Source: Eledone cirrhosa
Lineage: Eukaryota
DNA length: 64,000 bases
Direction of reading: 5' to 3'
NCBI GenBank assembly: GCA_964016885.1
Contig: OZ024764.1
Location: forward strand, 4,340,001 to 4,404,000
The notes beneath the pieces are model-generated. The model was not told the origin of the DNA. It did no database searches and saw nothing but the letters and a program-made list of their open reading frames with translations. This document shows positions 1,472 to 46,414 of this stretch, piece by piece; within the stretch, counting starts at the first letter, position 1; each line of letters opens with the position of its first letter. The position numbers and the translations under genes were made by a program.

Positions 1472-1632
1472 CTGGAAATAGGGATCAGAAAACATCCAGA
1501 ACAATCACCACATGGTATCACATCCAACAATCCCGACCAGAGCTGAGTGAACTGGAGCAACGTGAAATAAAGTGTCTTGCTCAAGGACACAATGCATCAC
1601 CTTGTCTGGAAATTCACAACCTTTCGATTGGA

Positions 1633-2789: not shown

Positions 2790-3651
2790 TCCAAGCCATA
2801 ACAGAGGAGTTTAAGACTGGCTATCCATGGGAACTTCTCTATGCTGATGATCTGGTTCTTATAGCAGAATCAGTAGAGGAGCTAGAGAATAAATTCTGGC
2901 TATAGAAACAGCAGTTGGAAGCAAGAGGACTGAGAGTGAACCTAACAAAGACTAAAGTGTTGATAAGTATGAAAGAGGAAAGACTCTGATTTCATCAGGG
3001 AAATGGCCATGTTCGATATGTAGGAAAGGAGTTGGCATAAATTCTATAAAATGTACACAATGCAGATCCTGGGTAAACAAGAGATATAGTGGGATAGGTA
3101 GGAAAAAATACGTATGCAGTAGATGTATAGGGAAATTTGACAGTAGAAGTTGCACTGATAGACACATTTTTCCAATGCAGGTGGGTTCTATAGAAGTGGT
3201 GGATAGCTTCCGGTACCTAGGAGATCAGATTAGCATGAGAGGGGGGTGTTTTCTGAGGCCATAGTATCTAGAATAAGGACGGGTTGGAAGAAGTTTAGGG
3301 AGCTGCTTCCTCTGCTGACAAAGAAGGGTTTCTCCCTGTGTACGAAAGGACGGTTATATGATGCCTGTGTGAGATATGCAACGGCTGGAGAGAAGACTGA
3401 GATGGTATGGACATGTGATGCGCATGGAGGATGACCGCTGGGTAAAGAAGTGCCAAGAAATCGCAGTAGAAGGAAGACGCACTAGAGGAAGACCACGAAA
3501 AACATGAGCAGAGGTGGTGAGAGCAGACCTCAGATCGCTGAAGCTCATGGAGGAATGACGAAGGACCGTGACAAATGGAGAGATACTGTGCTGAACAGGA
3601 CCCATCCTACCCTTGCAAGCAGGGAAAAGCGGACGTAAAATGATGATGATG
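2790..3651 (+). mobile_element. Degenerate RTE LINE 3' fragment
   Basis: Motifs PWELLYADDL, GKWPCSICRKGVG, RRLRWYGHVMRM, GRPRKT; (ATG)n tail. Confidence 0.85.
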
Positions 3652-3948
3652 ATATAATCCTTATCGTCGAGTCCTCTTCGGATTTTAGTCTTCACATTTA
3701 TTATTACTATATATATATATATGAATGTATGTATAGTATATTTGGCAATATACCGTATGTTTAATTACAAACATTTAGAAGACCATTTGCTATCAGTTTT
3801 AAAGTAGTGACTATGTCACTTACTTAATTTGGGTGAAAGAAGGGAGAGAGGCTGACAGTCTGTTTCTTGCTGTTTGGCGTTTATCAGAACCACACACTCC
3901 CCTGCTTCTGCCGAAAATTATAGAAATTGGATTCTTATAGAATTCCAA

Positions 3949-6900
3949 TCATCATCATCATTTTATGTCCGCTTTTCCCTGCTTTCAAGGGTGGAACGGG
4001 TCCTATTCAGCACAGCATCTCTCCACTTGTCACGGTCCTTCGTCATCTCCACCGTGAGCTTCAGTGATCTGAGGTCTGCTCTCACCACCTCCACCCATGT
4101 TTTTCGTGGTCTTCCTCTACTGTGTCTTCCTTCTACTGGGATTTCTTGGCAGTTCTTTACCCAGCGGTCATTATCCATGCACATCACATGTCCATACCAT
4201 CTCAGTCTTCTCTCCCACACACCACAACTTATCCCTCTTATCCACAGTTTCTCTCTCAACACATCACATGTCCATACCATCTCAGTCTTCTCTCCCACAC
4301 ACCACAACTTATCCCTCTTATCCACAGTTTCTCTCTCAACACATCACATGTCCATACCATCTCAGTCTTCTCTCCCACACCACAACTTATCCCTCTTATC
4401 CACAGTTTCTCTCTCAACACATCACATGTCCATACCATCTCAGCCTTCTCTCCCACACACCACAACTTATCCCTCTTATACACAGTTTCTCTCTCAACTC
4501 ATCACATGTCCATACCATCTCAGTCTTCTCTCCCACACACTACAACTTATTCCTCTTATACCTAGTTTCTCTCTCAACACATCACATGTCCATACCATCT
4601 CAGTCTTCTCTCCCGCACACCACAACTTATCCCTCTTATACACAGTTTCTCTCTCAACACATCACATGTCCATACCATCTCAGCCTTCTCTCCCACACAC
4701 TACAACTTATTCCTCTTATACACCTTTTCTCTCTCAACACATCACATGTCCATACCATCTCAGCCTTCTCTCCCACACACTACAACTTATTCCTCTTATA
4801 CACCTTTTCTCTCTCAACACATCACATGTCCATACCATCTCAGCCTTCTCTCCCATACCCTACAACTTATCCCTCTTATACACAGTTTCTCTCTCAACAC
4901 ATCACATGTCCATACCATCTCAGTCTTCTCTCCCACACACCACAACTTATCCCTCTTATCCACAGTTTCTCTCTCAACACATCACATGTCCATACCATCT
5001 CAGTCTTCTCTCCCACATACTACAGTTTATCCCTCTTATCCACAGTTTCTCTCTCAACTCATCACATGTCCATACCATCTCAGTCTTCTCTCCCACACAC
5101 CACAACTTATCCCTCTTATACACAGTTTCTCTCTCAACTCATCACATGTCCATACCATCTCAGTCTTCTCTCCCACACACTACAACTTATTCCTCTTATA
5201 CCTAGTTTCTCTCTCAACACATCACATGTCCATACCATCTCAGTCTTCTCTCCCGCACACCACAACTTATCCCTCTTATACACAGTTTCTCTCTCAACAC
5301 ATCACATGTCCATACCATCTCAGCCTTCTCTCCCACACACTACAACTTATTCCTCTTATACACCTTTTCTCTCTCAACACATCACATGTCCATACCATCT
5401 CAGCCTTCTCTCCCACACACTACAACTTATTCCTCTTATACACCTTTTCTCTCTCAACACATCACATGTCCATACCATCTCAGTCTTCTCTCCCACACAC
5501 CACAACTTATCCCTCTTATCCACAGTTTCTCTCTCAACACATCACATGTCCATACCATCTCAGTCTTCTCTCCCACATACTACAGTTTATCCCTCTTATA
5601 CACAGTTTCTCTCTCAACTCATCACATGTCCATACCATCTCAGTCTTCTCTCCCACACACCACAACTTATCCCTCTTATACCCAGTTTCTCTCTCAACAC
5701 ATCACATGTCCATACCATCTCAGCCTTTTCTCCCACACACCACAACTTATCCCTCTTATACACAGTTTCTCTCTCAACACATCACATGCCCATACCATCT
5801 CAGTCTTCTCTCCCACACACCACAACTTATCCCTCTTATACACAGTTTCTCTCTCAACACATCACATGCCCATACCATCTCAGTCTTCTCTCCCACACAC
5901 CACAACTTATCCCTCTTATACACAGTTTCTCTCTCAACTCATCACATGTCCATACCATCTCAGTCTTCTCTCCCACACACTACAACTTATCCCTCTTATA
6001 CACAGTTTCTCTCTCAACTCATCACATGTCCATACCATCTCAGTCTTCTCTCCCACACACTACAACTTATTCCTCTTATACCCAGTTTCTCTCTCAACAC
6101 ATCACATGTCCATACCATCTCAGTCTTCTCTCCCACACACCACAACTTATCCCTCTTATACACAGTTTCTCTCTCAACTCATCACATGTCCATACCATCT
6201 CAGTCTTCTCTCCCACACACTACAACTTATTCCTCTTATACCCAGTTTCTCTCTCAACACATCACATGCCCATACCATCTCAGTCTTCTCTCCCACACAC
6301 CACAACTTATCCCTCTTATACACAGTTTCTCTCTCAACTCATCACATGTCCATACCATCTCAGTCTTCTCTCCCACACACTACAACTTATTCCTCTTATA
6401 CCCAGTTTCTCTCTCAACACATCACATGCCCATACCATCTCAGTCTTCTCTCCCACACACCACAACTTATCCCTCTTATACACAGTTTCTCTCTCAACTC
6501 ATCACATGTCCATACCATCTCAGTCTTCTCTCCCACACACTACAACTTATCCCTCTTATACACAGTTTCTCTCTCAACTCATCACATGTCCATACCATCT
6601 CAGTCTTCTCTCCCACACACTACAACTTATCCCTCTTATACACAGTTTCTCTCTCAACTCATCACATGTCCATACCATCTCAGTCTTCTCTCCCACACAC
6701 TACAACTTATTCCTCTTATACCCAGTTTCTCTCTCAACACATCACATGCCCATACCATCTCAGTCTTCTCTCCCACACACCACAACTTATCCCTCTTATA
6801 CACAGTTTCTCTCTCAACTCATCACATGTCCATACCATCTCAGTCTTCTCTCCCACACACTACAACTTATTCCTCTTATACCCAGTTTCTCTCTCAACAC

Positions 6901-7720
6901 ATCACATGCCCATACCATCTCAGTCTTCTCTCCCACACACCACAACTTATCCCTCTTATACACAGTTTCTCTCTCAACACATCACATGCCCATACCATCT
7001 CAGTCTTCTCTCCCACACACCACAACTTATCCCTCTTATACACAGTTTCTCTCTCAACTCATCACATGTCCATACCATCTCAGTCTTCTCTCCCACACAC
7101 CACAACTTATCCCTCTTATACACAGTTTCTCTCTCAACACATCACATGTCCATACCATCTCAGCCTTCTCTCCCACACACTACAGCTTATCCCTCTTATA
7201 CACAGTTTCTCTCTCAACACATCACATGTCCATACCATCTCAGTCTTCTCTCCCACACACTACAGCTTATCCCTCTTATACCCAGTTTCTCTCTCAACAC
7301 ATCACATGTCCATACCATCTCAGCCTTCTCTCCCACACACTACAGCTTATCCCTCTTATACACAGTTTCTCTCTCAACACATCACATGTCCATACCATCT
7401 CAGTCTTCTCTCCCACACACTACAGCTTATCCCTCTTATACACAGTTTCTCTCTCAACACATCACATGTCCATACCATCTCAGCCTTCTCTCCCACACAC
7501 TACAGCTTATCCCTCTTATACCCAGTTTCTCTCTCAACTCATCACATGTCCATACCATCTCAGCCTTCTCTCCCACACACTACAGCTTATCCCTCTTATA
7601 CCCAGTTTCTCTCTCAATTCAGCCATGCTTGGTTGTTCACGCACATTGACAATACACATCCAACAGATCATGCTTGCTTCATTTCTCTCCAGTCGTCGCA
7701 TATCCTCTGCAGTTGCTGCC
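3949..7720 (-). mobile_element. RTE LINE 3' fragment with an internal 80-bp tandem expansion
   Basis: RRLERNEASM...LREKLGIRGI..RRLRWYGHVM...GRPRKTW; (ATG)n tail at 3949-3961. Confidence 0.87.
4181..7617. repeat. 80-bp minisatellite, about 43 copies, RTE-derived
   Basis: Unit acatcacatgtccataccatctcagtcttctctcccacacaccacaacttatccctcttatacacagtttctctctcaac. Confidence 0.95.
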
Positions 7721-8062
7721 CAATATATACACATATATATATCCGATCTATATAACAGTCCCATACGAGCAAGACAACCAATCTTGCCTCAAGTGGGAAA
7801 ACTCCCGTCTAAACCCATGCAAGCGTGGAAGATGGACGTTAAACGATGATGATGGTGATGATGATGATGATCTCCCACAATGCCAAAGTTGGCCTCTGTA
7901 AGATTTGAACTCAGAATGCAGAGAACTAGAATCCGAATCACACACCATGCTGTATCTGTTTCGACGAATGACTCAGCAAATTTACTGATGGCTTTTTCAC
8001 CCAGCGTACTCTGTAATAGCTCTCCACCTTACTAAACTTTTGAAAATCCAGCCTGCTTTACA

Positions 8063-9712
8063 ATATTACAGTAAAGACTTTAATATTTAATGTGATGTAG
8101 TCATAGTGTTGTTTTGTACTAAATGTTTATAGTATCTTTACTGGTGGACAGATTGTTGTGAAAATTTACAGTATTACAGTAAAGACTTTAATATTTAATG
8201 TGATGTAGTCATAGTGTTGTTTTGTACTAAATGTTTATAGTATCTTTACTGGTGGACAGATTGTTGTGAAAATTTACAGTATTACAGTAAAGACTAGTAT
8301 TTAATGTGATGTAGTCATAGTGTTGTTTTGTACTAAATGTCTATAGTATCTTTACTGGTGGACAGATTGTTGTGAAAATTTACAGTATTACAGTAAAGAC
8401 TTTAGTATTTAATGTGATGTAGTCATAGTGTTGTTTTGTACTAAATGTTTATAGTATCTTTACTGGGGGACAGATTGTTGTGAAAATTTACAGTATTACA
8501 GTAAAGACTTTAGTATTTAATGTGATGTAGTCATAGTGTTGTTTTGTACTAAATGTTTATAGTATCTTTACTGGTGGACAGATTGTTGTGAAAATTTACA
8601 GTATTACAGTAAAGACTTTAGTATTTAATGTGATGTAGTCATAGTGTTGTTTTGTACTAAATGTTTATAGTATCTTTACTGGTGGACAGATTGTTGTGAA
8701 AATTTACAGTATTACAGTAAAGACTTTAGTATTTAATGTGATGTAGTCATAGTGTTGTTTTGTACTAAATGTTTATAGTATCTTTACTGGGGGACAGATT
8801 GTTGTGAACATTTACAGTATTACAGTAAAGACTAGTATTTAATGTGATGTAGTCATAGTGTTGTTTTGTACTAAATGTTTATAGTATCTTTACTGGGGGA
8901 CAGATTGTTGTGAAAATTTACAGTATTACAGTAAAGACTTTAATATTTAATGTGATGTAGTCATAGTGTTGTTTTGTACTAAATGTTTATAGTATCTTTA
9001 CTGGTGGACAGATTGTTGTGAAAATTTACAGTATTACAGTAAAGACTTTAGTATTTAATGTGATGTAGTCATAGTGTTGTTTTGTACTAAATGTTTATAG
9101 TATCTTTACTGGTGGATAGATTGTTGTGAAAATTTACAGTATTACAGTAAAGACTTTAGTATTTAATGTGATGTAGTCATAGTGTTGTTTTGTACTAAAT
9201 GTTTATAGTATCTTTACTGGTGGACAGATTGTTGTGAAAATTTACAGTATTACAGTAAAGAGTTTAGTATTTAATGTGATGTAGTCATAGTGTTGTTTTG
9301 TACTAAATGTTTATAGTATCTTTACTGGGGGACAGATTGTTGTGAATATTTACAGTATTACAGTAAAGACTAGTATTTAATGTGATGTAGTCATAGTGTT
9401 GTTTTGTACTAAATGTTTATAGTATCTTTACTGGGGGACAGATTGTTGTGAACATTTACAGTATTACAGTAAAGACTTTAATATTTAATGTGATGTAGTC
9501 ATAGTGTTGTTTTGTACTAAATGTTTATAGTATCTTTACTGGTGGACAGATTGTTGTGAAAATTTACAGTATTACAGTAAAGACTAGTAATATTTAATGT
9601 GATGTAGTCATAGTGTTGTTTTGTAGTAAATGTTTATAGTATCTTTACTGGTGGACAGACTGTTGTGAAAATTTACTGTATTACAGTAAAGACTAGTAAT
9701 ATTTAATGTGAT
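8063..9712. repeat. About 108-bp AT-rich tandem repeat, about 15 copies
   Basis: Unit attacagtaaagactttagtatttaatgtgatgtagtc...gtgaaaatttacagt. Confidence 0.95.
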
Positions 9713-10257
9713 ACAGTCATCATCTTTTGTAGTTTTAAAGAATGTCTTGCTGATATGGTACAGGATATTAAAAGTTGGCATTCGTGGTCCCGAAATTTGC
9801 GAAAATTTCCTAGAAATCACCAAATATTCGCAGAATTGTAAATATCTTCCGCCATCTTTTTATGGCTTTTTTCATGGCAATATATATATTTTAACACTAA
9901 CTTATCAACAACAATATACCGTATTTGCTGGCCTATTGGACGCCCCTTCACATAAGACTCCCTCTTTTTTAATTATATTTTATGTTATATTCTGACGTTT
10001 ATAGGCATTTTTATGGACCACGTCAAATATTTGTGGTTTTTCACTCTTTGTAGGTGATCTAGGAACATAACCATCACAAATACTGAGGGACAACTGTATA
10101 TGTGTGTGTGTGTATTGAACAATGAAAATAAAACAAAAGTTGAAGATAGGTTCTTAACCAGCTTGTTGTTTTACGATCATTTCATACAAATGAAACAGTT
10201 CTAGTCCTGTAGAAACCATTTCTATATATATAGGTATATAGATATTAATTTAATAAT

Positions 10258-10441
10258 TGTTTCTACTTTAGGCACAAGGCCAGCAATTACCCCAGTGCAT
10301 TACTGGTACTTTATTTTATCGACCCCGTAAGGATGAAAGGCAAAGTCAACCTCGGCGGGATTTGAACACAGATCGTAAAGGGAGTAACTATACTGGAAAG
10401 CATGGCGTCCGACCCTCTACCGATACTGCCAATCCACCACC
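10258..10441 (-). mobile_element. tRNA-derived SINE (family A) with a 13-bp TSD; other copies at ~2430, 13351, 15438, 16590, 45333, 45635, 56451, 56845
   Basis: Box A TGGCAGTATCGG and box B GTTCAAATCCC on the minus strand. TSD TTAATTTAATAAT at 10245-10257 and 10442-10454. Confidence 0.85.
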
Positions 10442-10792
10442 TTAATTTAATAATGAAAATAATAACAACAAAGTCAAGTTATTTTACCTATACATATCAT
10501 TGTTTTACAATCGTTTCAGAGGGTTGATCATATTGGGATATTGCCTGATCTATAGCGGTTATTGAACTGTATACTATCAGACCTCATATATAGGTTCGAT
10601 CTGACTGTCTTGTTTCCGAAGAAGACGGTCTAATCGAACCTATATATGAGGTCAGATATTATATAGTTCAATAACTGCTATAGATCAGACAATATGTCAA
10701 TATGATCAACCCTCCGAAACAATTGTAAAACAATGATATTAACAGGTAAAATAACTCGACTTTGTTGTTATTATTTTCATTGTTAAATTAAT
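10442..10792. repeat. Long inverted repeat (about 165-bp arms) whose left end is interrupted by a SINE
   Basis: ttaatttaataatgaaaataataacaacaaagtc ... gactttgttgttattattttcattgttaaattaa. Confidence 0.88.
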
Positions 10793-10932
10793 ACCTAATA
10801 TCTGACTCCGTATCTAAGGAATTAACTCAGTGGAACACAAAACCTTTCTAAGGATTTCACTGGATTCCTTGCTATCAGATTACATTGAGTTCTGTCTACG
10901 GTACGGACCCTAACACCAAGGGTAGACCACAG

Positions 10933-10972
<40 letters not shown>

Positions 10973-11207
10973 TGTATATATATTTATTAAAATAACAGAA
11001 ACTTTAATCTGTTATTTTAATAAATATTTGCTCTAGGGTTCTTATATATTTGATATATATTTATCCTTATCGAGCCCTCTTTGGATTTTAGTCTTCACAT
11101 TTATTATTATTACTATATATATATGCAAAAGTTCTATTTAAATTGTTGGATACAACAAGCAAATATTTTTATAACTGATATAAAGCACTCAACAAGTATT
11201 TGGAGTA

Positions 11208-11627
11208 AATATATGATATTAACAAATGGAAACTATATTTATAAAACCATATTTTATTATACATATTTCAAGGATACCATGTTAAATTATGGTATGCCTT
11301 CATCAGACAAAATACAATATATACCAGTTTTATAAATAAATATTGACATACCCTTTCAAAATGCAACCGTTACTTTTGGACATACCCTTTCAAAATGACA
11401 TACCCTTTCAAAATGCAACCGTTACTTTTGGAAGACATCCCTGATGTTTTCCAAAAGTAACGGTTGCATTTTGAAAGGGTATGTCAATATTTATTTATAA
11501 AACTGGTTATATATTGTATTTTGTCTGATGAAAGCATACCATAATTTAAGATGGTATCCTTGAAATATGTATAATAAAATAGATATGGTTTTATAAATAT
11601 AGTTTCCATTTGTTAATATCGTATATA
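11208..11627. repeat. Long inverted repeat (about 180-bp arms), Penelope-like fold-back
   Basis: The arms are reverse complements around gaagacatccctgatgttttcc; the right end abuts (TA)n. Confidence 0.85.
11517..11581 (+). ncRNA. Putative minimal type I hammerhead ribozyme; mirror copy at 11250-11314 (-)
   Basis: TATTTTGT-CTGATGA-AAGCATACCAT..ATGGTATCCTT-GAAA-TATGTA-TA-ATAAAATA. Confidence 0.55.
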
Positions 11628-11676
<49 letters not shown>

Positions 11677-11775
11677 CGAAGAAATGTGGTAAGGAACCAG
11701 GTGGACCATAACGCACCAAAGTACTCAATACTTAGGGTAGTAGAGTGGGTAATAGGAACAAGTAAGACTTGTTCC

Positions 11776-11807
<32 letters not shown>

Positions 11808-12288
11808 TATTGTTGGCATTAGGAAGGGCATCCAGCTGTAGAAACTAAGCTAGAATCAGTTGTGTGACATGGTCACCTGACCTAGCATTGCCCACAACAG
11901 GACAACTTATCTAACCCATGCTAGTGTGGAAAATGGACGTGAAACGATGATGATGATAATGATATAGGTTAATAGAAAAACAAGGCACATTTGCTGATAT
12001 GCAATTATTAATTTATTGAATACTGGATAGTCTTACACATGTTTCAATACAATAAATAATTGGCCTCTGAAACCTGAATTATCACATGATTTACAACCCC
12101 ATGCATTAACCATGCAGGATTGATTTTGGCAACACAACTGATACCAACTAAATATTAGTGGTAAACTGTTCAATTGACCAAACTGGTAAGTTGCCTTACC
12201 ATTTTTGTACATGCACATCTACCCTACAATATAAAAACTAGAAGCCACCTACAGAAAGCTGGTACCTGAAATTTATTTCCCATATATA

Positions 12289-12325
<37 letters not shown>

Positions 12326-13914
12326 TCATCATCATCGTTTAATGTCCATCTTCCACGCTAAACGATGATGATGATGATGATATATATATATATATATAGG
12401 AAATAAATTCATTTATTTCTATAAATATAAATATATATTTATTTATATATATATAAATATATATTTATTTATATATATATATAAATATATATTTTATTTA
12501 TATATATATAAATATATATTTATTTATATATATATAAATATATATTTATTTATATATATATATATATTTATTTATATATATATAAATATATATTTATTTA
12601 TATATATATAAATATATATTTATTTATTTATATATATATTTATATATATATACACACAGCAAGGATAATTTCTAAAGTCAGATGTAGATGTTCAAAGTTT
12701 TTCATCATCATCATCATCGTCATTTTAATATCCATATTCCCTGGCCACCCCTTCCTTCTTGTAATTTTTTTATAGAAAATGTCCTGGGGCCTCCATTTCA
12801 AAACTACATTCCTGAAAGATAAAGAAAATTAGGGTTAGGTTCTAGGATTAAGGTTACAGTTGAGGGTGAAGTTAAGGTTAGGGTTTAGGGATTTAGGTTA
12901 AAGTTATGTTTAAGGTTAGACTTAGATGTAGAGTTGAGGTTAAACACCAAGTTGTACTTAAATCCTTAACCCTTACCCAAACACCAATGAACACTAACTC
13001 AACCCTAAACCAACCGTGACCCTAAATTAATCTAACCATAATCCTGATGAAACTTAAACCAACCCTAAACATTGACCCAACCTTTAACCCAGACCTTAAT
13101 CCTTACACCTAGCCCTAACAACAGACCCTAAATCCTAATCCATGACTAAACCACAACACTAAACCCCCAACACTAACTCTAAACTCTAAGCCAAACCTTA
13201 ACTTTTACCCCCCAAACCAAAACAAACCCCAACTTCTAAAACCAAACTGTAACCCCCAAGTTAGATTACTTTCAATAAATAATCAATGAATATTACATAA
13301 TTTATCTACTAAATTTTGTAGCTGTTGATTAAATATAAATATTCTTATATATAATTGTTTCTACTTTTGGCACAAGGCCAGCAATTACCCCAGTGCATTA
13401 CTGGTACTTTATTTTATCGACCCCGTAAGGATGAAAGGCAAAGTTAACCTTGGTGGGATTTGAACTCAGATTGGAAAGGGACGTAACTCTTTGCTGCAAA
13501 GCATGGCGTCTGACCCTCTACCGATACTGCCAATCCACCACCTTAAAATAAGCAATCATTCTTATATATAATGATTGCTTATTTTAAGATTCACTTTTAA
13601 AATTTCTACACTTCTGGTTAGCATCTGTTACCTATATCACATCACTTATATAAACATTCATATATTTACATCATTATATAAGGTTTATATTTCTGTCATT
13701 AATTTTCTCCTTTTTCGTTTTTATAACATTTCACCGTAATCCAGTTTATATATAATATCGTCTGTTTTAAATGTTTCATGGATTACTTTACTGATTACAT
13801 AAGACAGTGTAACACAGTCTCTCTTCAATTTCTGTGTATATTGTCAATTACGATTGTATTTGATCTTATTATATCTACATGTATGTATATTTACATATAA
13901 TATCAATATGCGCA

Positions 13915-14342
13915 CTAGGCTTTTCCCTCAAAATGAAAGGCAGACTATATGATGCGTGTATACAAACAGCAATGTTACATGGTAGTGAGACCTGGGCACT
14001 GTCTGTAGAAGACTTGCATAGATTAGAAAGAAACGAAGCCTGCATGCTCCGATGGATGTGTAATAGTAATATACGCGAATGGCAAAGCATAAATGAATTG
14101 AGAGAGAGACTGAGCATAAGAGGAATCAAATGCTGTGTGCAGGAGAGCAGGATGCGTTGGTATGGACATGTGATGCGTATGAAGGATGACAGCTGCATAA
14201 AAGGGTGCAGAGCACTAGAAGTCGATGGAAACCGCGGAGTAGGGAGACCCAAGAAGACCTGGGATGAGGTGATAAAAACTGACCTTGCCTAATTGCACCT
14301 CTCAAGGGCGATGACACAGGACCGTGACCTCTGGCGTCACAC
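13915..14342 (+). mobile_element. RTE LINE fragment
   Basis: KGRLYDAC, MLHGSETW, RMRWYGHVMRM, GRPKKTW. Confidence 0.85.
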
Positions 14343-14834
14343 AGTAATACCCACGGGTACAAGCCGAGTTTAATTTCCAGACCAGATAATGTGTTGTTTC
14401 CTTGAGCAAGACACTCTATTTCACATTGGTCCAGTTTACTCAACTGTAGAAATTAGTTGTGATGTCACTGATACCAAGCTGTATCAGCCATTGCCTTTCC
14501 CTTGGACAACATATATAGTGTAGTGTATATATGGTGTGTATTGTATATTTATAGTAGTGTATATATAGTGTAGTGTATATATATGGTGTGATGTCACTGG
14601 TACCAAGCTGTATCAACCATTGCCTTTCCCTTGGACAACATATATAGTGTAGTGTATATATGGTGTATAAACTGTCTATATATATGTATATAATGTATAT
14701 ATATATATATATATATATATTGCGATGTTACTGGTGCCAAGCTGTGTCAGCCATTGCCTTTCTCTTGGACAACATATATAGTTATATAGTGTAGTGTATA
14801 TATGGTGTATAAACTGTCTATATATATGGACATA

Positions 14835-14876
<42 letters not shown>

Positions 14877-15164
14877 CGATGTTACTGGTGCCTAGCTGTA
14901 TCAGCCATTACCTTTCCCTTGGACAACATCAGTGGTGTGGGGAGGTTAGAGCATTGGCCTTGCAATCGAAAGGTTGTGAGTTCAATTCTCAGACCGGGTG
15001 ATGTGTTGTTTCCTTGAGCAAGACACTTTATTTCACGTTGCTCCAGTTTACTCAGCTGCAGAAATGAGATGATAGGGACTGAGGTCCCTATCATTAAATC
15101 ACCGAAGACACCTCCGAGATATACCTTGGAGGAGGCCAGCTAAACCTGCATAAGTGTGAGCTGT

Positions 15165-15213
<49 letters not shown>

Positions 15214-15584
15214 TGTAAATGAGGTTGGTGTTAGGAAGGGCATCCAGCTGTAGAAATCAAGCCAGAATCTGTTCCCGTATGAGCAAGACATGGTCACCTG
15301 ACTTGGCATTGCCCACAACAGGACAACCTGTCTAACCCATGCTAGCGTGGAGACATTGACATAAAACGGTGATGATAATGATGATGATGATGATGATACT
15401 ACACATGAGGGGTGGTTTTTTCTGCTAATATATATAATTAATTGTTTCTACTTTAGGCACAAGGCCAGCAATTACCCAGTACATTACTGGTACTTTATTT
15501 TATCGACCCCATAAGGATGAAAGGCAAAGTTAACCTCGGCAGGATTTGAACTCAGAATGACAAGGGCATATAATTAATTCTTAC

Positions 15585-15812
15585 ATTTCATAATTGTTGA
15601 TTCATTAGTTCCCTGATGTTGTTGGGGTGCAGGGGTTTTCTCGTAGCTAGAAGATGAGGTGGAGAATGCCCTTCGTCCAGTCGGGAATTCTAATGACGAC
15701 AGAGGAGCTTGGGCCTGCTTTTTTCTCTGCTTCTCAACCAACTTAACCCCTAACTGGGCCAATGTCTTCACAAATTTCCCCGTAGATTCAGCCTGGGTGT
15801 TGGTGCTTTGAC
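15585..15812 (-). CDS. ACAD10: ACAD10 coding exon 12 (kinase-ACAD linker)
   Basis: cacag|(G)QSTNTQAESTGKFV...GRRAFSTSSS...STIMK T|gtaaga. 228 nt, phase 1 to 1. Confidence 0.85.
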
Positions 15813-15832: not shown

Positions 15833-16655
15833 ACAATTGTTTCTACTTTAGGCACAAGGCCAGCAAAATCCAGTACATTACTGGTACTTTATTTTATCTC
15901 ATAATTGTTTCTACTTCAGGCACAAGGCCAGCAATACCCAGTACATTACTGGTACTTTATTTTATCTCATAATTGTTTATACTTTTGGCACAAGTCCAGC
16001 AATTACCCAGTGTATTACTGGTACTTTATTTTATCTCATAATTGTTTCTACTTTTGGCACAAGGCCAGCAATTACCCCAGTGTATTACTGGTACTTTATT
16101 TTATCTCATAATTGTTTCTACTTTTGGCACAAGGCCAGCAATTACCCCAGTGTATTACTGGTACTTTATTTTATCTCATAATTGGTTCTGCTTCAGGCAC
16201 AAGGCCAGCAATTACCCAGTGTATTACTGGTACTTTATTTTATCTCATAATTGTTTCTACTTCAGGCACAAGGCCAGCAATACCCAGTACATTACTGGTA
16301 CTTTATTTTATCTCATAATTGTTTCTACTTTTGGCACAAGGCCAGCCATTACCCAGTGTATTACTGGTACTTTATTTTATCTCATAATTGTTTCTACTTC
16401 AGGCACAAGGCCAGCAATACCCAGTACATTACTGGTACTTTATTGTATCTCATAATTGTTTCTACTTTTGGCACAAGGCCAGCAATTACCCAGTGTATTA
16501 CTGGTACTTTATTTTATCTCATAATTGTTTCTACTTCAGGCACAAGGCCAGCAATACCCAGTACATTACTGGTACTTTATTTTATCTCATAATTGTTTCT
16601 ACTTTTGGCACAAGGCCAGCAATTACCCAGTGTATTACTGGTACTTTATTTTATC
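15833..16655. repeat. About 68-70-bp tandem of the SINE-A 3' part, about 12 copies
   Basis: Unit ataattgtttctacttttggcacaaggccagcaattacccagtgtattactggtactttattttatctc, continuing into the SINE body. Confidence 0.92.
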
Positions 16656-16849: not shown

Positions 16850-17285
16850 CCAGTGCCCTAGCATGACCCTAGTCAAATGACTGAAGGCCGTGCCCCAGCA
16901 TGGCCACAGTCTAATGATGGAAACCAGTACAAGAAGGCAGTGCCCCAGCATGGCCACAGTCTAATGACTGAAACCAATAAAAGAAGGCAGTGCTCCAGCA
17001 TAGCCACAGTTTAATGACTGAAACCAATAAAAGAAGGCAGTGCCCCAGCATGGCCACAGTCTAATGACTGAAACCAATAAAAGAAGGCAGTGCCCCAGCA
17101 TGGCCACAGTCTAATGACTGAAACCAGTAACAGAAGGCAGTGCCCCAGCATGGCCACAGTCTAATGACTGAAACCAATAAAAGAAGGCAGTGCCCCAGCA
17201 TGGCCACAGTCTAATGACTGAAACCAATAAAAGAAGGCAGTGCCCCAGCATGGCCACAGTCTAATGACTGAAACCAATAAAAGAA
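16850..17285. repeat. 50-bp tandem repeat, about 8 copies (SINE-tail-like)
   Basis: Unit ggcagtgccccagcatggccacagtctaatgactgaaaccaataaaagaa. Confidence 0.9.
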
Positions 17286-17356: not shown

Positions 17357-18515
17357 CCATAACCTGATACCCTGGTAGACCAAACCCCAGCAGTTTGGTA
17401 CCAATTGTGGTCCTCTCTGTAACCTGATACCCTGGTAGACCAAACCGCAGGAGCTTCTTACCAATTGTGGCCCTCTTGTGACGCCCTGGTAGACCAAACC
17501 TCAAGAGCTTCTTACCAATTGTGGCCCTCTTGTGACGCCCTGGTAGACCAAACCTCAAGAGCTTCTTACCAATTGTGGCCCTCTTGTGACGCCCTGGTAG
17601 AACAAACCTCAAGAGCTTCTTACCAATTGTGGCCCTTTCCATAACCCAAACCTCAAGAGCTTCTTACCAATTGTTGCCGTCTTGTAGACCAAACCTCAAG
17701 AGCTTCTTACCAATTGTGGCCCTCTCCATAACCCAAACCTCAAGAGCTTCTTACCAATTGTGGCCCTCTCCATAACCCAAACCTCAAGAGCTTCTTACCA
17801 ATTGTGGCCCTCTCCATAACCCAAACCTCAAGAGCTTCTTACCAATTGTGGCCCTCTCCATAACCCAAACCTCAAGAGCTTCTTACCAATTGTGGCCCTC
17901 TCCATAACCCAAACCTCAAGAGCTTCTTACCAATTGTGGCCCTCTCCATAACCCAAACCTCAAGAGCTTCTTACCAATTGTGGCCCTCTCCATAACCCAA
18001 ACCTCAAGAGCTTCTTACCAATTGTGGCCCTCTCCATAACCCAAATCTCAAGAGCTTCTTACCAATTGTGGCCCTCTCCATAACCCAAACCTCAAGAGCT
18101 TCTTACCAATTGTGGCCCTCTCCATAACCCAAACCTCAAGAGCTTCTTACCAATTGTGGCCCTCTCCATAACCCAAACCTCAAGAGCTTCTTACCAATTG
18201 TGGCCCTCTCCATAACCCAAACCTCAAGAGCTTCTTACCAATTGTGGCCCTCTCCATAACCCAAACCTCAAGAGCTTCTTACCAATTGTGGCCCTCTCCA
18301 TAACCCAAACCTCAAGAGCTTCTTACCAATTGTGGCCCCCTCCATAACCCAAACCTCAAGAGCTTCTTACCAATTGTGGCCCTCTCCATAACCCAAATCT
18401 CAAGAGCTTCTTACCAATTGTGGCCCTCTCCATAACCCAAACCTCAAGAGCTTCTTACCAATTGTGGCCCTCTCCATAACCCAAACCTCAAGAGCTTCTT
18501 ACCAATTGTGGCCCT
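17357..18515. repeat. 44-bp (distally 54-60-bp) tandem repeat of the exon-11 3' end plus splice donor
   Basis: Minus-strand unit GAGGGCCACAATTG|GTAAGAAGCTCTTGAGGTTTGGGTTATGGA. Confidence 0.95.
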
Positions 18516-18676
18516 CTTGTAGACGCCCTGCAGTATGGCGGCAAATCTGAAGAATGTGTAGATCACGTAGAAGTTCCAGTTTTCTATGGCGGGTATATTC
18601 CTGGTGGTGCAGTACTGGTGTAGGATCTGTTTAATGGTGGGGATGCCATACTGGGAGAGGGCAACATCACTGAAAC
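18503..18676 (-). CDS. ACAD10: ACAD10 coding exon 11 (end of APH domain)
   Basis: ttccag|(G)FSDVALSQYGIPT...ENWNFYVIYTFFRFAAILQGVYKRATI G|gtaaga. 174 nt. Confidence 0.94.
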
Positions 18677-18856
18677 CTGGAATGGTAAAAATAGAGAATG
18701 GTATTATTTAAACCGGCCATATCTGGCCAGAATTCTCTCACCTCTTTCTGTTTAAACTGGCCATAACTGGCCACTCATACTGATGTTAAGGTATTGTTCT
18801 CAAAATAAATAATGTCATAATCTCATAGATTTGATGTTAAATGAGGTAATTATGTA

Positions 18857-26723: not shown

Positions 26724-29700
26724 CTACAGGCTGATATAGAGAGAAGACCCATTCACTCTGGCCATTCTCCCTACTTTCACCCACCTTTCATAAAACTTGC
26801 TGGGGTAGAGCACCTCTCTCTCCATTCTGATCCTTCTTTTAAAATGGTATTTGAAAAAGGGGACCAGTTGTTGGCCGGAGAGAAAGGTGTCTGACCTCAG
26901 CCCTTTCAGCCTCGTCCACCATACAACTTCTTTAGCCATGGCTACCACACAGAGAAAAACCGCCTCTCCTTCGTTTTTGAAAGGGGGAGGCGGTTTGATC
27001 GTGACAATGGACTCGGTGGTCAACCGGATTGGTCCCACCCTCGACAGTAGTCGTTCCACATAGCCCCACAGGTCAGCAATGCCTGGGCAGTGTACGAATG
27101 CGTGCGCAACGGTTTCGTCATCATGCACGCATCTCGGACAGATCTTATTCAAAGGATCTCTACCCAGGCTCCCATGCCTGTGGAGCTTGTCTCGAACGGG
27201 TAGAGCCCCTCGGTAGCACTGCCAAGCCAGGGACTTTTGGAAGTTGTCCATCGGTCCAGGGCCAAACGTCCTACCGAACAGACTGGCCAGTTCATCTTCC
27301 TCCATGCCTAGAGCTTCTCCGAGAGCATCGTCGCACCTGCTGCGTACCAACCCTCTATAGAATGTCGAGGTGGAGTCTCCACTGATTGCCGGGTCCGCTT
27401 TCCAGAGGGCCGTGAGCGCCTGGGCACATTCAATGTGCCAGTCGCCCACTTTTCTCGGTCTTTGCTTGACCCAGGATTGCAGCTCGGTGAGCGAGACGAG
27501 TCTGGGAAAGGCTCGCCTCACAAACGGGGCCCACACCGGTTGACCGGTGAGGAATACCTGGAGGTGCCGTAGCCTTAATGCGTGTTTACGCATCTGTAGC
27601 CACGGCATCCCCAGCCCTCCTTTCGAAGGGTGTTGACAGCAGATGGATCTCCTCACCAAAGGGGTCCGCTTGTTCCAAAGAAATTGGAACAGCGCGCACT
27701 CCATTTTGGCGAGTCTTTTCACTGGGCAAGGCACGACGGTCAAGCGGTAGTAGATGACGGATGCTATATAAGTATTCGCCACCTCCGCTCGACCTTTCAG
27801 GGATAGTTTGCACTGGGCCCACTTCTGGGTGAGTGCAAACACCCTGGCCGTTACCTCGTTCCAGTTTTTCTCCACCTGGAGGTCTGGTCCGAACCAGACC
27901 CCAAGCAGCTTCACCGGGCCCTCCGTCCAGCGTCCGACGACGTCGTTGGAGGGCATCGGTTTGCCTCTCCATGTTCCGAGTTGCAAACCGACGGACTTGT
28001 CCCGGTTCAGCTTGGCTCCTGTAAACCTTTCATATTCCTCCAGTAAGGTGCCGATCTCACCGATTTGCGAGGTTTTCGACACCATTACTGTCACGTCATC
28101 GGCGTAGGCCGACGCCGCTTTCTGCAATCCCGGTTCCAAAGGGATGCCCTGCAACCGCTCCAACTTCCGCAGTAGTGGCTCAAGAGCCAGCACATACAGT
28201 AGGGAGGAGAGAGGGCATCCCTGTCGGATGGATCACATGATTTGGAACGGCTCCGAGAGGTGGCCGTTCACCTTGACCCTTGAGCAGACGTTGCTGCTGT
28301 GCATCGCAGCAATCCAACCCCTGAAAACGGGTCCGAAGCCTGCCGCCGCGAGCACCGCATCCAGGTAACGATGGTCAACCCTATCGAAAGCTTTAGATTG
28401 ATCCAAGTTGATCAGGGCCCCACCAAAGCCGGGTTCATTCCCTACCCTCTCTATGATGTATCGCATAAGGTGGAGATTGTCGTGAATGGACCTGGACGGG
28501 ATTGCGCATGTCTGCGCTTCTCCCACCAGGTTTCCAACGACAAGCGCCAACCTCTTCGCTAACACCTTGGCCAAAATCTTTAACTCTGTATTTAGCAGAG
28601 TTATGGGCCTGAAGTTACTTATGTCATCCCCCTTGTTCTCATCCTTCCTCACCAGCGTAACTACGCCCTTGGTCACAGAACTGGGAATTCTCCCGTTCTG
28701 CTGCCAGTTGCAGTAGACAGCTTCGAGGATATCGGAGAACAAGTCCGGCATCGCTACATATAGCTCGTATGGTAGACCATCGAGACCCGGGGATTTGCGT
28801 TTGCCGCATTGGCTCAGCGCCGCCCCTATCTCAGCAGCTGAAATCGTCCTTTCGCAGGACTTCGCCTCCGCGTCCGAGAGGCGCGGCAGACCGTCGAGGT
28901 ATGGATTGAAATCCATAGTCTCACCCGGCGCGCCGCCCCTCTCGAACAGTCGTGCAAAGTGCCGCTGAAAGGCCGCACACATCTGCCCAGGTTCAAGGAT
29001 CACACGCCCATCCTGGTCCTTCAAAGACCGAATCGTGGACTTGTTCCCACTTTTTGCCTCTGTCACTCGGGCCCAGCTTACAGCTTTGGCTCCCTCATTA
29101 CCCAGAGCACGTATTTTACTCCTGACAACGCAGCCTTCATGCTTCACCTCAAAGAACTGGTCTAAGGCCATTCTTGATGCCAGCACGCCGGCTACATTGC
29201 CACTCCTAATCGCCTCTTCTACTCTATCTACTAATTCCCTTTCCGTCTTGTTCCTATCCCTTGCTAATTCCTGACTAAAACCTATCGATTCTATTCTAAT
29301 TGCTCTCTTAAGAGAGCTCCACCACCTGTTGTTGACAATTGCCCCTGTCAAATTCTGCTTAACTAACGTGCTAATCCGTTTACTGTAAGCTTTGCTTCTC
29401 GGTAAGGACAAGTTCAGCTTCCAGTAACCGGGTCCCTGTCTATGGGTTCTATCAAGGTTGGCTATGCAGGTCACTAACTTGTGATCCGAATAGTCAACCA
29501 TGAACATTTTTGGACAGCTAAATGTGTCCCTATCGTTCTCTCTAACTAGGACCCTATCTAGGTACGACCTAGATGTTCCACTGCGATTGGTCCACGTCCA
29601 TAGTGGTACAGTCGGAAAATCTAGTCGATATCTATCGGCCAGGTCAAATCGGCCGATTAACCTTTTGAGGCTTTTACACCCCCCTCTATTGGCACATGCC

Positions 29701-30161
29701 CCTACATAGTCCCAACGTGCATCCAGGATACCATTCCAGTCCCCCACTAAAAGCAAGGAGCGGGACGTTCCCAGAAAAGTTTCCAGACGTTGGAAGTATT
29801 CCGGCCGCGCTGCCCAAAAAGGGGCGTACACAGCTATTAGTCTAAGGGCTCCACTTTCACTACTGCCGACGTCTAAAACCACCAGTCGACCCTCCGGGTC
29901 CAGGTGCACCTTCTGTATGGCGAGGCCCAGGTGTTTTCGCAGCAGAACGACAACTCCACCCCCACCCCCCGGTTGACAGAGAGATGCGAAGATCTCAAAG
30001 TCGTCGAAGAGGGGCGCCAGTTGGTGCTCGCTGCTGATCCTGGACTCGCAAATAGCCATTACATCCATTCTATGTGACCTGAGATCGTTTAAAAGTTTGC
30101 CTTGTTTCCAAGACAGTCCCAGGCCACGTACATTCAGAAACCCAACTCTTATATCAGCCAT
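26724..30161 (-). pseudogene. Tx1-like ORF2 (APE endonuclease, reverse transcriptase, C-terminal CCHC) with one in-frame TGA at 28233-28235
   Basis: Motifs LNVRGL, GDWN, YLDR, SDH, SPGLDG, FRPITLLN, DQSKAFD, RQGCPLS, AYADD, CPRC..ETVAHAFVHC. The 642-aa and 489-aa ORFs are in the same frame. Confidence 0.92.
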
Positions 30162-30182
30162 GTTGGTTAAAAGAGGAAGGAC

Positions 30183-31928
30183 CTACCTGTTCGGCTCCTG
30201 AGGAGCAGGTTGCACAATATCCATGGGCGTATTGGAGGGGTTGTTTGGTGGGGTGTTGTTCTGTGGTGGAGTGGGGGTGTTTGGTGAGGTGTGGGTGGGG
30301 AAACGTTTCAAGAGGACGCGGTTATAGGGTCGAGTACATGTTTTCCCCACGTCCTCAGGAAAGTTCTCTCTTAGTTTTGCATAGGTGTCCATTGGGAGTC
30401 TTATCATTTTTAAATGCGGTTTGTTGGCCGCGCTTGCAAAGAATTGCCCTTCAGTTTCCACCAAAGGGTCTTTGTGTATTGTTTTTACTAGTTCTTTGTT
30501 ATTTGTGTTAATGTATGTATACTGTTTTATTTGTGTTGTGTTTGTTTGTTGTTCTTGTGTGTGCTTACGTTTTGTTGTATGTGTTATGTTTTGGGGTGGG
30601 GCGGATTTTGTTTGTTCTGTTTGTTTTGTTTTTGTTGGTGGTTGTGTGTTTGTTTCGTTTATGTTCGAGTGGTGCTTTCTTTTTTTCCTTTTTACAGGTT
30701 GGAAGGGTTCCCCCTCTTCGTCACTAGGTGCCGTTTCCGCTGGGTCCTCGTCCGTGCTGTCGGGTAGTGGTGTATTTTGGGGTTTTGTTGTATTTGTGTG
30801 TGTTTTGGGAGTTGTTTTGGGTGGGGCCGTGTCTTGTGTTATTTTTCCCTGTTGTTTTTGTTGTTGTTGTGGTGGTGGTGGTGGAGGTGGTGGTGGTGGT
30901 GGTGGTGGTGGCGGTGGTGGTGTGTGGGGTGTAGGCAAAAGAGCCTTTTTTTTTGTCAATTGAGGACAAGCAGCCCTTAGATGACCCCTGCTTGAACAGT
31001 AGTAACATATGGGCCTCCTACCCTCGGCTGAAATATATATAAATGTTTCTCCATCGAGGGACACCCTCTGTGGTATTCTAGCGATTCGTTCTGGTCTCAT
31101 TTGGACCAGAACCTCCACGCTCAAACCGCCGAAAACGTCTGTGGTGACTTCTCCTACTGAGAGGATTCCGTCCTCGTCTTCTAAAAATCCTGTTAGTACC
31201 CAGGAAATGCATGCATTTGGCCGGATTCCGGAGACCCTTATCTTCTGCGTTCTTTTCCCTAAATATGTGGGGAAAAATGTATATATCTTGGAAACAATTG
31301 GTGCCACAGAGTATTTCCTGGCCGTCAATTGATCCTTCATTAGGACCGTTATATTCCCATAGAGTGGCCCTTTTTGTATGAACGATATATCACTCCACAC
31401 ATTTTTTAGGACCAGCTCAATCTCTTTTTGGGATAATTGAGTTGGTTTCCTTGTTATGTTGGAAATTGTTCTGAAAGATATCGTTCTTAGCGTCGTGTCT
31501 CTTTTGATTTCTTGTGGGGAGGTGATTGTGAAGTCTCCTCCTTCTTTGAAAGTTACATACTGTTTCGCTTCCTTCATCTTTTCTCTCAGAGTTGTAATGT
31601 CCAGTTGCTTGCAGGTTTGTGTTTTCCGGACCGCCTGTGCAAAGGAGGTACCAGTAGTGGGTTCACTTTGTTTGGTGTTATCGTTATTTTTTCCTTGGTT
31701 GGTGTTGTGACTATTGCTGTTATTGTCGTTGATGTTTTTGTCTGCGTTTATGTGACTTTCTGGGTTTTCACCCATTTCTACAAATTTTTCTTTTAATTCC
31801 GTGTTCCATGTTTCTTTTGCAGAAGTGAGGAGGGAAGACTTAGAGCCTTGTGCTTCTAGCTTCTCTGTATCACCTTTCTTAGGGGGCGTGGCTTTCACGT
31901 TAGGATGAGATGTGAAAATTCCGTCCAT
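30183..31928 (-). CDS. Tx1-like ORF1 (gag-like; CCHC zinc knuckle, poly-Pro, basic NLS-like KRKKRK)
   Basis: Open 581-codon frame from MDGIFTSHP, containing CYYCSSRGHLRAAC. It ends 21 nt before the ORF2 ATG. Confidence 0.88.
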   Translation of the reverse strand: MDGIFTSHPNVKATPPKKGDTEKLEAQGSKSSLLTSAKETWNTELKEKFVEMGENPESHINADKNINDNNSNSHNTNQGKNNDNTKQSEPTTGTSFAQAVRKTQTCKQLDITTLREKMKEAKQYVTFKEGGDFTITSPQEIKRDTTLRTISFRTISNITRKPTQLSQKEIELVLKNVWSDISFIQKGPLYGNITVLMKDQLTARKYSVAPIVSKIYTFFPTYLGKRTQKIRVSGIRPNACISWVLTGFLEDEDGILSVGEVTTDVFGGLSVEVLVQMRPERIARIPQRVSLDGETFIYISAEGRRPICYYCSSRGHLRAACPQLTKKKALLPTPHTPPPPPPPPPPPPPPPPPQQQQKQQGKITQDTAPPKTTPKTHTNTTKPQNTPLPDSTDEDPAETAPSDEEGEPFQPVKRKKRKHHSNINETNTQPPTKTKQTEQTKSAPPQNITHTTKRKHTQEQQTNTTQIKQYTYINTNNKELVKTIHKDPLVETEGQFFASAANKPHLKMIRLPMDTYAKLRENFPEDVGKTCTRPYNRVLLKRFPTHTSPNTPTPPQNNTPPNNPSNTPMDIVQPAPQEPNR

Positions 31929-33514
31929 TTCTATTAGTTTGCCGTAATAAATTTTTAACTGGAAAATTCGCCCCAAAAAGGGGCGAAAATAAATAAACTC
32001 AAAGTTTGACGACCAAGGCAAGGGGTTAACGTATATTACAGTATAAAAAATTAATCAAAACTCACTTTTTGAGTAAGTAAATCCGACTCGGTAGCCGAGC
32101 TTGTTCACACACGTCAACACACGTCTCTCGTATACGAGATGTTATGTGAGGTATTATGTGAGGTAAAGCCTTTACTGTGACAATACAATAGTATATATAG
32201 AGTAATGTAAATGTTATATGAGATATTATGTGAGATAAAGCCTTAACTGTGAAAATACAATAGTATATATAGAGTAATGTAAATGTTATGTGAGATATTA
32301 TGTGAGGTAAAGCCTTTACTGTGACAATACAATAGTATATATAGAGTAATGTAAATGTTATGAGATATTATGTGAGATAAAGCCTTAACTGTGAAAATAC
32401 AATAGTATATATAGAGTAATGTAAATGTTATGTGAGATATTATGTGAGGTAAAGCCTTTACTGTGACAATACAATAGTATATATAGAGTAATGTAAATAT
32501 TATGTGAGATATTATGTGAGGTAAAGCCTTTACTGTGAAAATACAATAGTATATATAGAGTAATGTAAATATTATGTGAGGTAAAGCCTTTACTGTGACA
32601 ATACAATAGTATATATAGAGTAATGTAAATATTATGTGAGGTAAAGCCTTTACTGTGACAATACAATAGTATATATAGAGTAATGTAAATGTTATGTGAG
32701 GTAAAGCCTTTACTGTGAATATACAATAGTATATATAGAGTAATGTAAATATTATGTGAGGTAAAGCCTTTACTGTGACAATACAATAGTATATATAGAG
32801 TAATGTAAATGTTATGTGAGGTAAAGCCTTTACTGTGAAAATACAATAGTATATATAGAGTAATGTAAATATTATGTGAGGTAAAGCCTTTACTGTGACA
32901 ATACAATAGTATATATAGAGTAATGTAAATATTATGTGAGGTAAAGCCTTTACTGTGACAATACAATAGTATATATAGAGTAATGTAAATATTATGTGAG
33001 GTAAAGCCTTTACTGTGACAATACAATAGTATATATAGAGTAATGTAAATGTTATGTGAGATATTATGTGAGGTAAAGCCTTTACTGTGACAATACAATA
33101 GTATATATAGAGTAATGTAAATATTATGTGAGGTAAAGCCTTTACTGTGACAATACAATAGTATATATAGAGTAATGTAAATGTTATGTGAGATATTATG
33201 TGAGGTAAAGCCTTTACTGTGAATATACAATAGTATATATAGAGTAATGTAAATGCTAGAGGGTTAATAAAATAGAAAAATGTGCCAAAAAAATACATTT
33301 GAAAAGTATTCAGTGGGACAGGGTGAGGGAGGAGGGGACAGAGAGAATGAAGGAGAGAAAGAGGGGAATAGAGAGAGAGAGAGACAAGTAGTTGCGGAAA
33401 GAAAAAAAAAGTGAGAGATGAATCTAAAGAAAAGTGGATGGATATTAATAAAGGGGTCACATAATCAGGAGAAGGGAGGTAGGTGTAAAAGACTAACTCG
33501 CTAACCCTAACCCT

Positions 33515-45844: not shown

Positions 45845-46232
45845 TTATACAGTGGTCTTACTACTGACCTTTCTTGCCAAAGTTATCCAAATCTGCCTGT
45901 CCAATGTCAACAGAGGGCATCTATCATTGCCGTGTAGGTGTTGTGGCGTTCATTCTCTGACCTGTTCAGTAGGAAGGGGTCGATATAGACCCCCCTTTCA
46001 CCAGACCCGTCATATAGAATTATACAGTGGTCTTACAACTTACCTTTCTTGCCAAAGTTATCCAAATCTGCCTGTCCAATGTCAACAGAGTGGATCATAC
46101 AGAGGGCATCTATCATGGCCGTGTAGATCTTGTGGCGTTTATTCTCTGACTTGTTCGGTAGGAGGGGGTCGATATAGACCCCCCTTTCACCAGACCCGTC
46201 ATATAGAATTATACAGTGGTCTTACAACTTAC
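45845..46232 (-). pseudogene. Two degenerate tandem copies of ACAD10 exon 8 (3' part plus donor, no acceptor)
   Basis: Units of 189 and 175 bp; a 2-bp deletion in both, an extra deletion in the distal copy; donors at 46043 (gtaagt) and 45868 (gtcagt). Confidence 0.9.
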
Positions 46233-46414
46233 CTTTCTTGCCAAAGTTATCCAAATCTGCCTGTCCAATGTCAACAGAGTGGATCTTACAGAGGGCATCT
46301 ATCATGGCCGTGTAGATGTTGTGGCGTACATTCTCTGACTTGTTCGGTAGGAGGGGGTCGATATAGACACACCCTTTCACCAGACCCATCATATAGAATT
46401 CTGTCCCCAGTACA
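46233..46414 (-). CDS. ACAD10: ACAD10 coding exon 8 (APH domain)
   Basis: cacag|(S)VLGTEFYMMGLVKG...IYTAMIDALCKIHSVDIGQADLDNFGKK G|gtaagt. 182 nt. Confidence 0.92.

What the first reader, a model, noticed from the sequence alone, without database searches (positions are those of the whole stretch)
17357..18515. About 24 cloned decoy 5' splice sites directly downstream of a coding exon
Seen: the 44-bp minisatellite is made of the last ~14 nt of ACAD10 exon 11 plus the first ~30 nt of the intron, so ATTG|GTAAGA recurs identically about every 44 nt for 1.1 kb. The distal 54-bp units carry a longer exon piece (CAGGGCGTC.ACAAGAGGGCC). Using the second donor frameshifts, and later donors read through a TGA. 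Inference: this either forces strict proximal-donor selection or acts as a copy-number-dependent rheostat (mis-splicing to NMD, U1 snRNP loading, or U1 protection of the transcript).
Basis: partly seen in the sequence, partly recalled or inferred. Interest (0 to 1): 0.75.

Follow-up and report, generated by a model that had tools for sequence, protein, structure and literature searches.

The report
Splice-donor minisatellite in octopod ACAD10
In an octopus-like animal's ACAD10 gene, the end of one exon and its splice signal are repeated 23 more times in the next intron, yet the one spliced transcript found uses the first signal, so this is likely a harmless example of a repeat type already known from human, lancelet and chicken genes.

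Summary
Intron 11 of an octopod ACAD10 gene (minus strand) opens with a 1.1-kb tandem array: the real donor TTG|GTAAGA (18502), 23 identical decoys and one decayed copy. Use of any decoy would give a premature stop. Public DNA runs hold the 44-bp unit at high depth, so it is not an assembly artefact. One spliced contig joins exon 11 to acceptor 15812 exactly at the first donor. Rare decoy use and NMD could not be tested. The layout is known: human F7 intron 7 (also IFI6, CBS, LMNB2, PDGF), lancelet 'mirages', chicken 'exon stuttering'. Half of this gene is tandem repeat, exon 8's donor is also triplicated, and random seeding predicts 0.5-1.5 such junctions of 40. The scan has noted this layout before in other genomes and elsewhere in this one; I confirmed the ECM29 case. 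Best reading: a tolerated by-product with first-donor selection. A rheostat or U1-shield role has no support beyond anatomy. In passing: the same run splices exon 12 to an unannotated stop-bearing exon (12811), which would give a HAD+kinase-only protein.

The parts
18503..18676 (-). ACAD10 coding exon 11 (174 nt, phase 1-1, end of the kinase/APH domain)
   Evidence: tblastn; spliced contig positions
18497..18505 (-). Authentic donor TTG|GTAAGA (intron starts at 18502)
17624..18517 (-). Young homogeneous block: 19 units of 44 bp and one of 43 bp, each ending in 15 nt (44-bp units) or about 21 nt (43-bp unit) of exon-end sequence before GTAAGA
17462..17623 (-). Three 54-bp units carrying a longer exon piece (CAGGGCGTC-ACAAGAGGGCCACAATTG, one T lost)
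17357..17461 (-). Oldest, diverged end: a 60-bp unit, the decayed donor GTACCA at 17401 and the transition to unique intron
16883..17285 (.). Unrelated 50-bp minisatellite (8 copies) in the same intron
15835..16655 (-). Unrelated 69-bp minisatellite from a dispersed repeat; 12 sense-strand AATAAA (16650-15893)
15585..15812 (-). ACAD10 coding exon 12 (228 nt; kinase end and linker); acceptor at 15812
45868..46400 (-). Second case in the same gene: the 3' part of exon 8 with its donor in a 189-bp tandem triplication (donors 46232 real, 46043 identical, 45868 weakened)

Best explanation
This is a locus-specific minisatellite whose units copy the exon 11/intron 11 junction of ACAD10; the spliced contig found uses the exon-adjacent donor, and the 23 decoys are likely silent, tolerated by-products of repeat expansion rather than a control device. 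Inferred origin: a slippage or microhomology duplication joined the intron's first ~47 nt to the exon's last ~13-15 nt (60-bp unit). A 16-nt deletion would give the 44-bp unit. Two further re-joinings to the exon at the shared words CAGGG and GTCTAC would give the 54- and 43-bp units. The 44-bp unit then expanded next to the exon. Inferred splicing: exon definition or 5'-to-3' priority picks the first donor (exon 174 nt; decoys would give exons of 218-1275 nt). Rare decoy use would make a premature stop and would probably be cleared by NMD, so the array costs little and persists.
For: Shown: run X1 holds one 2265-nt contig whose positions 1863-2039 lie on 18677-18501 and 2037-2265 on 15813-15585, an exact join at donor 1. 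Its loose end carries the exon-only word GGCGTCTAC, not the 44- or 54-bp unit sequence. The contig runs unbroken through this junction but ends at exon 12's donor, where two continuations exist (depth 20.7 and 12.3), so this assembly keeps common alternative junctions. Tandem repeats cover 50% of the 81-kb gene. Random placement of repeat seeds predicts 0.47 (10 local arrays) to 1.49 (all 27) junction-spanning arrays among 40 junctions; 2 clear ones are seen, the exon 8 and exon 11 donors. A 41-bp donor-spanning array with at least 37 copies sits in ECM29 on another contig. The shared words CAGGG, GTCTAC and AGAGG lie at the unit joints. Literature: F7 IVS7 uses only the most upstream of identical donors (PMC1557585); lancelet mirages do not appear to disturb splicing (PMC3087553).
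Against: The RNA evidence is one run, contigs only, of unrecorded library type, without NMD block; contigs drop rare variants. In IFI6 and CBS two further pseudo-donors are used (as cited in PMC1557585), so some leakage is plausible. All 23 decoys keep the donor intact. Only 4 substitutions exist among the 19 44-bp units (about 0.8 expected in the 9 donor positions), so this says nothing about selection. Such arrays are not common genome-wide: 0 of 70 kinase and 0 of 30 HECT exon matches. The chance argument therefore holds only for repeat-dense regions. The random-seed model is crude, and one of the two observed cases was ascertained.
Confidence: 0.8

Rival explanations
1. Leaky, length-dependent rheostat: a minor share of transcripts uses donor 2 or 3, is degraded by NMD, and the share varies with copy number, making the array a small splicing/expression QTL.
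For: Every decoy gives a premature stop well upstream of later junctions. The decoy 9-mers equal the real donor, which matches the recalled consensus CAG|GTAAGT at only 6 of 9 positions. IFI6 and CBS use two extra donors (cited in PMC1557585). Tandem-repeat length often associates with splicing in humans (PMC10078293, passages).
Against: The spliced contig passes unbranched through donor 1. In F7, downstream identical donors do not compete. If only the nearest one or two decoys leak, total copy number should matter little (inference).
Confidence: 0.13
2. U1 shield: the 23 U1-binding sites would suppress premature cleavage and polyadenylation at the 12 AATAAA of the 69-bp array 0.8-1.6 kb further down the same intron, so the array is kept by selection.
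For: Intron 11 has the highest sense AATAAA density of the gene's 20 introns (12; 4.5 per kb) and 23 GGTAAG. In intron 12, with 23 AATAAA and 2 GGTAAG, the RNA run shows a stop-bearing alternative exon. U1 protection acting over about 1 kb is recalled knowledge, from no call.
Against: The AATAAA come from a dispersed repeat also found elsewhere in the region. Introns 3, 17, 19 and 20 carry 5-8 AATAAA without a donor array, apart from 7 GGTAAG in intron 3 that I did not examine. Nothing shows these signals are used. Two adjacent arrays are expected where half the gene is repeat.
Confidence: 0.04
3. Assembly artefact or badly inflated copy number.
For: Runs X2 and X4 may be this DNA's own source (tool remark). 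No read or contig laid here spans the array.
Against: The unit has word depth 93.5, 122.3 and 125.5 in X2, X3 and X4, against 3.7 and 8.3 for the single-copy exon-12 contig in X2 and X4: roughly 25- and 15-fold, a rough guide only. X3 (second sample and study) holds a 74-nt record identical to the array, the length (44+30) expected for a collapsed 44-bp cycle. The ordered variants and diverged end look biological.
Confidence: 0.03

Closest known systems
Human F7 intron 7 37-bp VNTR, with IFI6 (6-16), CBS IVS13, LMNB2 and PDGF cited alongside (Borensztajn et al. 2006, PMC1557585; parts 1 and 4 of 6 and passages read; the other four genes only as cited there)
   Same: The first unit spans the exon-intron boundary; identical pseudo-donors follow; the most upstream donor is the one seen in use. 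IFI6 has a similar number (25 pseudo-sites).
   Different: Mollusc gene; 15-28 nt of exon per unit against 4 in F7; four related unit lengths; every decoy gives a premature stop (in F7 some do not); polymorphism and decoy competence untested here.
Amphioxus 'mirage' minisatellites (Adh3, globins BflGb6/BflGb9; Ebner et al. 2010, PMC3087553, passages read)
   Same: Tandem duplication of an exon-intron boundary in an invertebrate; homogenised inner units with a diverged boundary unit; regular splicing apparently kept.
   Different: Different phylum; length instability between haplotypes was shown there, not here.
'Exon stuttering' on chicken dot chromosomes (PMC12954441, passages read)
   Same: The exon edge plus splice site is copied through the neighbouring intron, in genes whose introns are filled with local tandem repeats (190 of 5,572 dot-chromosome introns there). 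Here a repeat-dense gene on a 29-Mb contig has two cases.
   Different: GC-rich bird microchromosomes against an octopod region of about 40% GC; enrichment on small octopod chromosomes not established by my sample.

Membership tests
Junction-spanning minisatellite (F7 type / mirage / exon stuttering) | First unit spans an authentic exon-intron boundary | tested here: met
Junction-spanning minisatellite (F7 type / mirage / exon stuttering) | Head-to-tail copies in the adjacent intron repeat the splice signal | tested here: met
   23 intact decoys
Junction-spanning minisatellite (F7 type / mirage / exon stuttering) | Local origin, not a dispersed element | tested here: met
   16 of 16 pattern matches and 23 of 23 DNA matches lie at this locus
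Junction-spanning minisatellite (F7 type / mirage / exon stuttering) | Normal mRNA is made from the authentic site | tested here: met
   one spliced contig in one run
Junction-spanning minisatellite (F7 type / mirage / exon stuttering) | Copy number varies between individuals (VNTR) | not testable with these tools
   contig depth gives no allele lengths; no long reads were listed
Splicing-regulatory tandem repeat / NMD rheostat | Decoy sites used at a measurable, length-dependent rate | tested here: inconclusive
   unbranched contig through donor 1, but contigs drop rare forms and NMD was not blocked
ACAD10 | HAD + kinase (APH) + acyl-CoA dehydrogenase domains in one multi-exon gene | tested here: met
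   21 coding exons cover O. sinensis ACAD10 (P0005) end to end; domain lists

The most novel reading that the evidence does not exclude
The donor array is a selected, copy-number-tunable U1 landing strip. It shields intron 11 from the 12 AATAAA of the downstream repeat and leaks a length-dependent share of transcripts to NMD. It thereby sets how much ACAD10 message reaches the exon 12 choice between full-length and HAD+kinase-only forms.
Probability: 0.05. Interest if true: 0.6.

Novelty: new member of a known kind. Interest (0 to 1): 0.17.

Why it matters
As found, it adds a mollusc case to a known repeat class and suggests that first-donor priority also holds in cephalopods. Its units record three separate microhomology joins, a tidy example of how such arrays start. 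It would matter more if allele length changed ACAD10 output, because that would be a natural test of U1 competition or protection in an invertebrate. No evidence for that was found.

Tried and rejected
No RNA holder was listed as such; X1 is taken as RNA only because its contigs are spliced. No X1 contig lay on array units 1-2 (18415-18489); lack of cover is not evidence. X3 gave no cover on exon 12. RNA folding of the exon end plus three units showed no obvious hairpin hiding the decoys; no shuffle control was run, so it is not used. No strong acceptor lies inside the array (best 12 of 18 pyrimidines), so a pseudo-exon or intron-gain reading was dropped. The exon 6 acceptor 'copies' lie in low-complexity repeat and were not counted. 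Which exon 8 donor X1 uses could not be told from contig length. Cluster members of the three octopod ACAD10 proteins (7 sequences) include no clear ~660-aa HAD+kinase-only form; the 543-aa O. bimaculoides entry was not examined. Base-rate sample: 70 of 138 kinase matches (shorter, exon-like ones; the 30 best, mostly long or intronless, and 38 others left out) and the best 30 of 43 HECT matches; HMM ends only approximate exon ends. The NEDD4 case of note e1-9590162 did not appear among the HECT loci and remains unchecked. A paper search for octopus minisatellites in introns listed 3 papers, none on this topic by title or abstract; I did not read them. No supplements were opened.

Full report
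Setting. The window is G000:C25:4340001-4404000 of a 3.0-Gb genome. The exon upstream of the array matches Octopus bimaculoides and O. sinensis ACAD10 at 89% and 86% identity, so this is another octopod. tblastn maps 21 coding exons on the minus strand from 63874 to about 17 kb before the window. Exon 11 is 18676-18503 and exon 12 is 15812-15585.

Observation. Intron 11 begins with 25 ATTG|GTA sites: the real donor at 18502, 23 identical TTG|GTAAGA decoys and a decayed GTACCA at 17401. Units are 44 bp x19 (15 identical), 43 x1, 54 x3 and 60 x1. The unit is found nowhere else in the genome: 16 of 16 exact pattern matches and 23 of 23 DNA matches are at this locus. Donor 2 frameshifts to a stop 42 nt into exon 12; donors 3-25 include the TGA of unit 2.

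Is it real? Three runs hold the unit at word depth 93.5, 122.3 and 125.5 (X2, X3, X4). The single-copy exon-12 contig has depth 3.7 and 8.3 in X2 and X4. X3, from a second sample and study, has a 74-nt record identical to the array, as expected for a collapsed 44-bp cycle. The tool warns that depth is no copy number and that X2/X4 may be the source DNA. This shows multiplicity, not length or polymorphism.

Which donor is used? Run X1 (kind unrecorded; spliced contigs) has a 2265-nt contig at depth 32.6. Its positions 1863-2039 lie on 18677-18501 and 2037-2265 on 15813-15585: a direct join of exon 11 to 15812 at donor 1. The loose end at 15813 carries sequence found only in the exon. The contig is unbroken here but ends at the exon 12 donor, where two joins of depth 20.7 and 12.3 diverge, so common alternatives do survive this assembly. 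Rare or NMD-cleared decoy use cannot be excluded from contigs of one run.

How it arose (inferred from sequence). The far end is the most diverged. The 60-bp unit is the intron start joined to the exon end at AGAGG. Removing 16 nt from it gives the 44-bp unit. The 54-bp and 43-bp units rejoin the exon at CAGGG and GTCTAC, words shared by the exon's last 28 nt and the intron's first 32. This fits slippage or microhomology-driven duplication followed by expansion next to the exon. Four substitutions among the 19 44-bp units, none in the donor, are too few to show selection.

How special? Minisatellites cover 40% of the 144 kb examined, and tandem repeats of all kinds cover 50% of the gene. A crude random-seed model expects 0.47-1.49 of the 40 junctions to be caught; two are, the exon 11 donor and the exon 8 donor (189-bp triplication). 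Elsewhere, 0 of 70 kinase exon matches (4.8% minisatellite around them) and 0 of 30 HECT matches had such an array, so the layout is uncommon genome-wide. A targeted look prompted by note e1-8673685 confirmed a 41-bp donor-spanning array in ECM29, in 1 of 4 exons. These numbers are consistent with, but too few to prove, a link to local repeat density.

Known systems. PMC1557585 (found; parts 1 and 4 of 6 and passages read) describes the human F7 intron 7 VNTR. There only the most upstream of identical donors is used although the others are functional. It cites IFI6 (25 pseudo-sites, two used), CBS (two used), LMNB2 and PDGF. Earlier scan notes led to lancelet 'mirages' (PMC3087553, passages) and chicken 'exon stuttering' (PMC12954441, passages). 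The testable defining features are met; polymorphism is untested. The scan has recorded the same layout in several other genomes (unchecked notes).

Mechanism and rivals. Most likely (0.8): first-donor selection, with rare leakage removed by NMD and the array neutral or nearly so. The join is shown; the selection mechanism, NMD and neutrality are inferred. A leaky length-dependent rheostat (0.13) has precedent in IFI6 and CBS but no local evidence. A U1 shield (0.04) rests on a coincidence: intron 11 has the gene's highest AATAAA density, 12 sites in a 69-bp array 0.8-1.6 kb past the last intact decoy. Those sites come from a dispersed repeat. Artefact: 0.03.

Side finding. The exon 12 to 12811 join creates a stop at the junction and had the higher depth in X1. 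If that exon is terminal it would give a HAD+kinase protein like the fragment mammals make by cleavage (PMC11342911, passages). No clear counterpart was seen among 7 octopod cluster members. It deserves its own check.

Verdict. Real, correctly described, a new member of a known kind; interest 0.17.

Noticed in passing
window 12811-~12709, minus strand (intron 12): Run X1 has two continuations from the exon 12 donor (15585): exon 13 at 1471 (depth 12.3) and an unannotated exon at 12811 behind a TTTCAG acceptor (depth 20.7). The second join makes TGA at the junction, predicting a protein that ends after HAD + kinase + linker. Many A(A/T)TAAA follow (12729-12417). It may be a terminal exon giving by splicing what mammals obtain by cleavage between the kinase and ACAD domains (PMC11342911, passages), or a poison exon. 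One run, 102 nt of contig.
   Followed up: partly
window 45868-46400: The 3' part of ACAD10 exon 8 plus its donor is tandemly triplicated (189-bp unit; copy 2 matches at 162 of 188 positions without gaps). There is no acceptor in the copies, and read-through meets TAA.
   Followed up: partly
L104 (G000:C9, ECM29): 41-bp array spanning a donor (ATAG|GTGAGT), at least 37 copies up to the locus edge; matches note e1-8673685.
   Followed up: partly
L066 (G000:C17 kinase exon): A decayed single copy of the exon end lies 125 nt downstream, near a donor-like AAG|GTAAAT.
   Followed up: no
window 52610-52718: A 56-bp duplication begins about 3 nt after the exon 6 donor and just misses copying it.
   Followed up: no
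window 26727-32054, minus strand: Near full-length LINE-like element (long ORFs with endonuclease and reverse-transcriptase-like motifs, recognised from recall; ORF2 broken by a frameshift near 28235) inside intron 10.
   Followed up: no
window 4180-7617, 43256-45118, 62543-63400: Several minisatellites seem seeded from retroelement fragments (80-bp and 61-bp units, judged from translations); the 80-bp array recurs about 10 kb before the window.
   Followed up: no
window 18702-18840: A very high-copy dispersed element (word depth above a million in DNA runs) ends about 25 nt upstream of the exon 11 acceptor.
   Followed up: no
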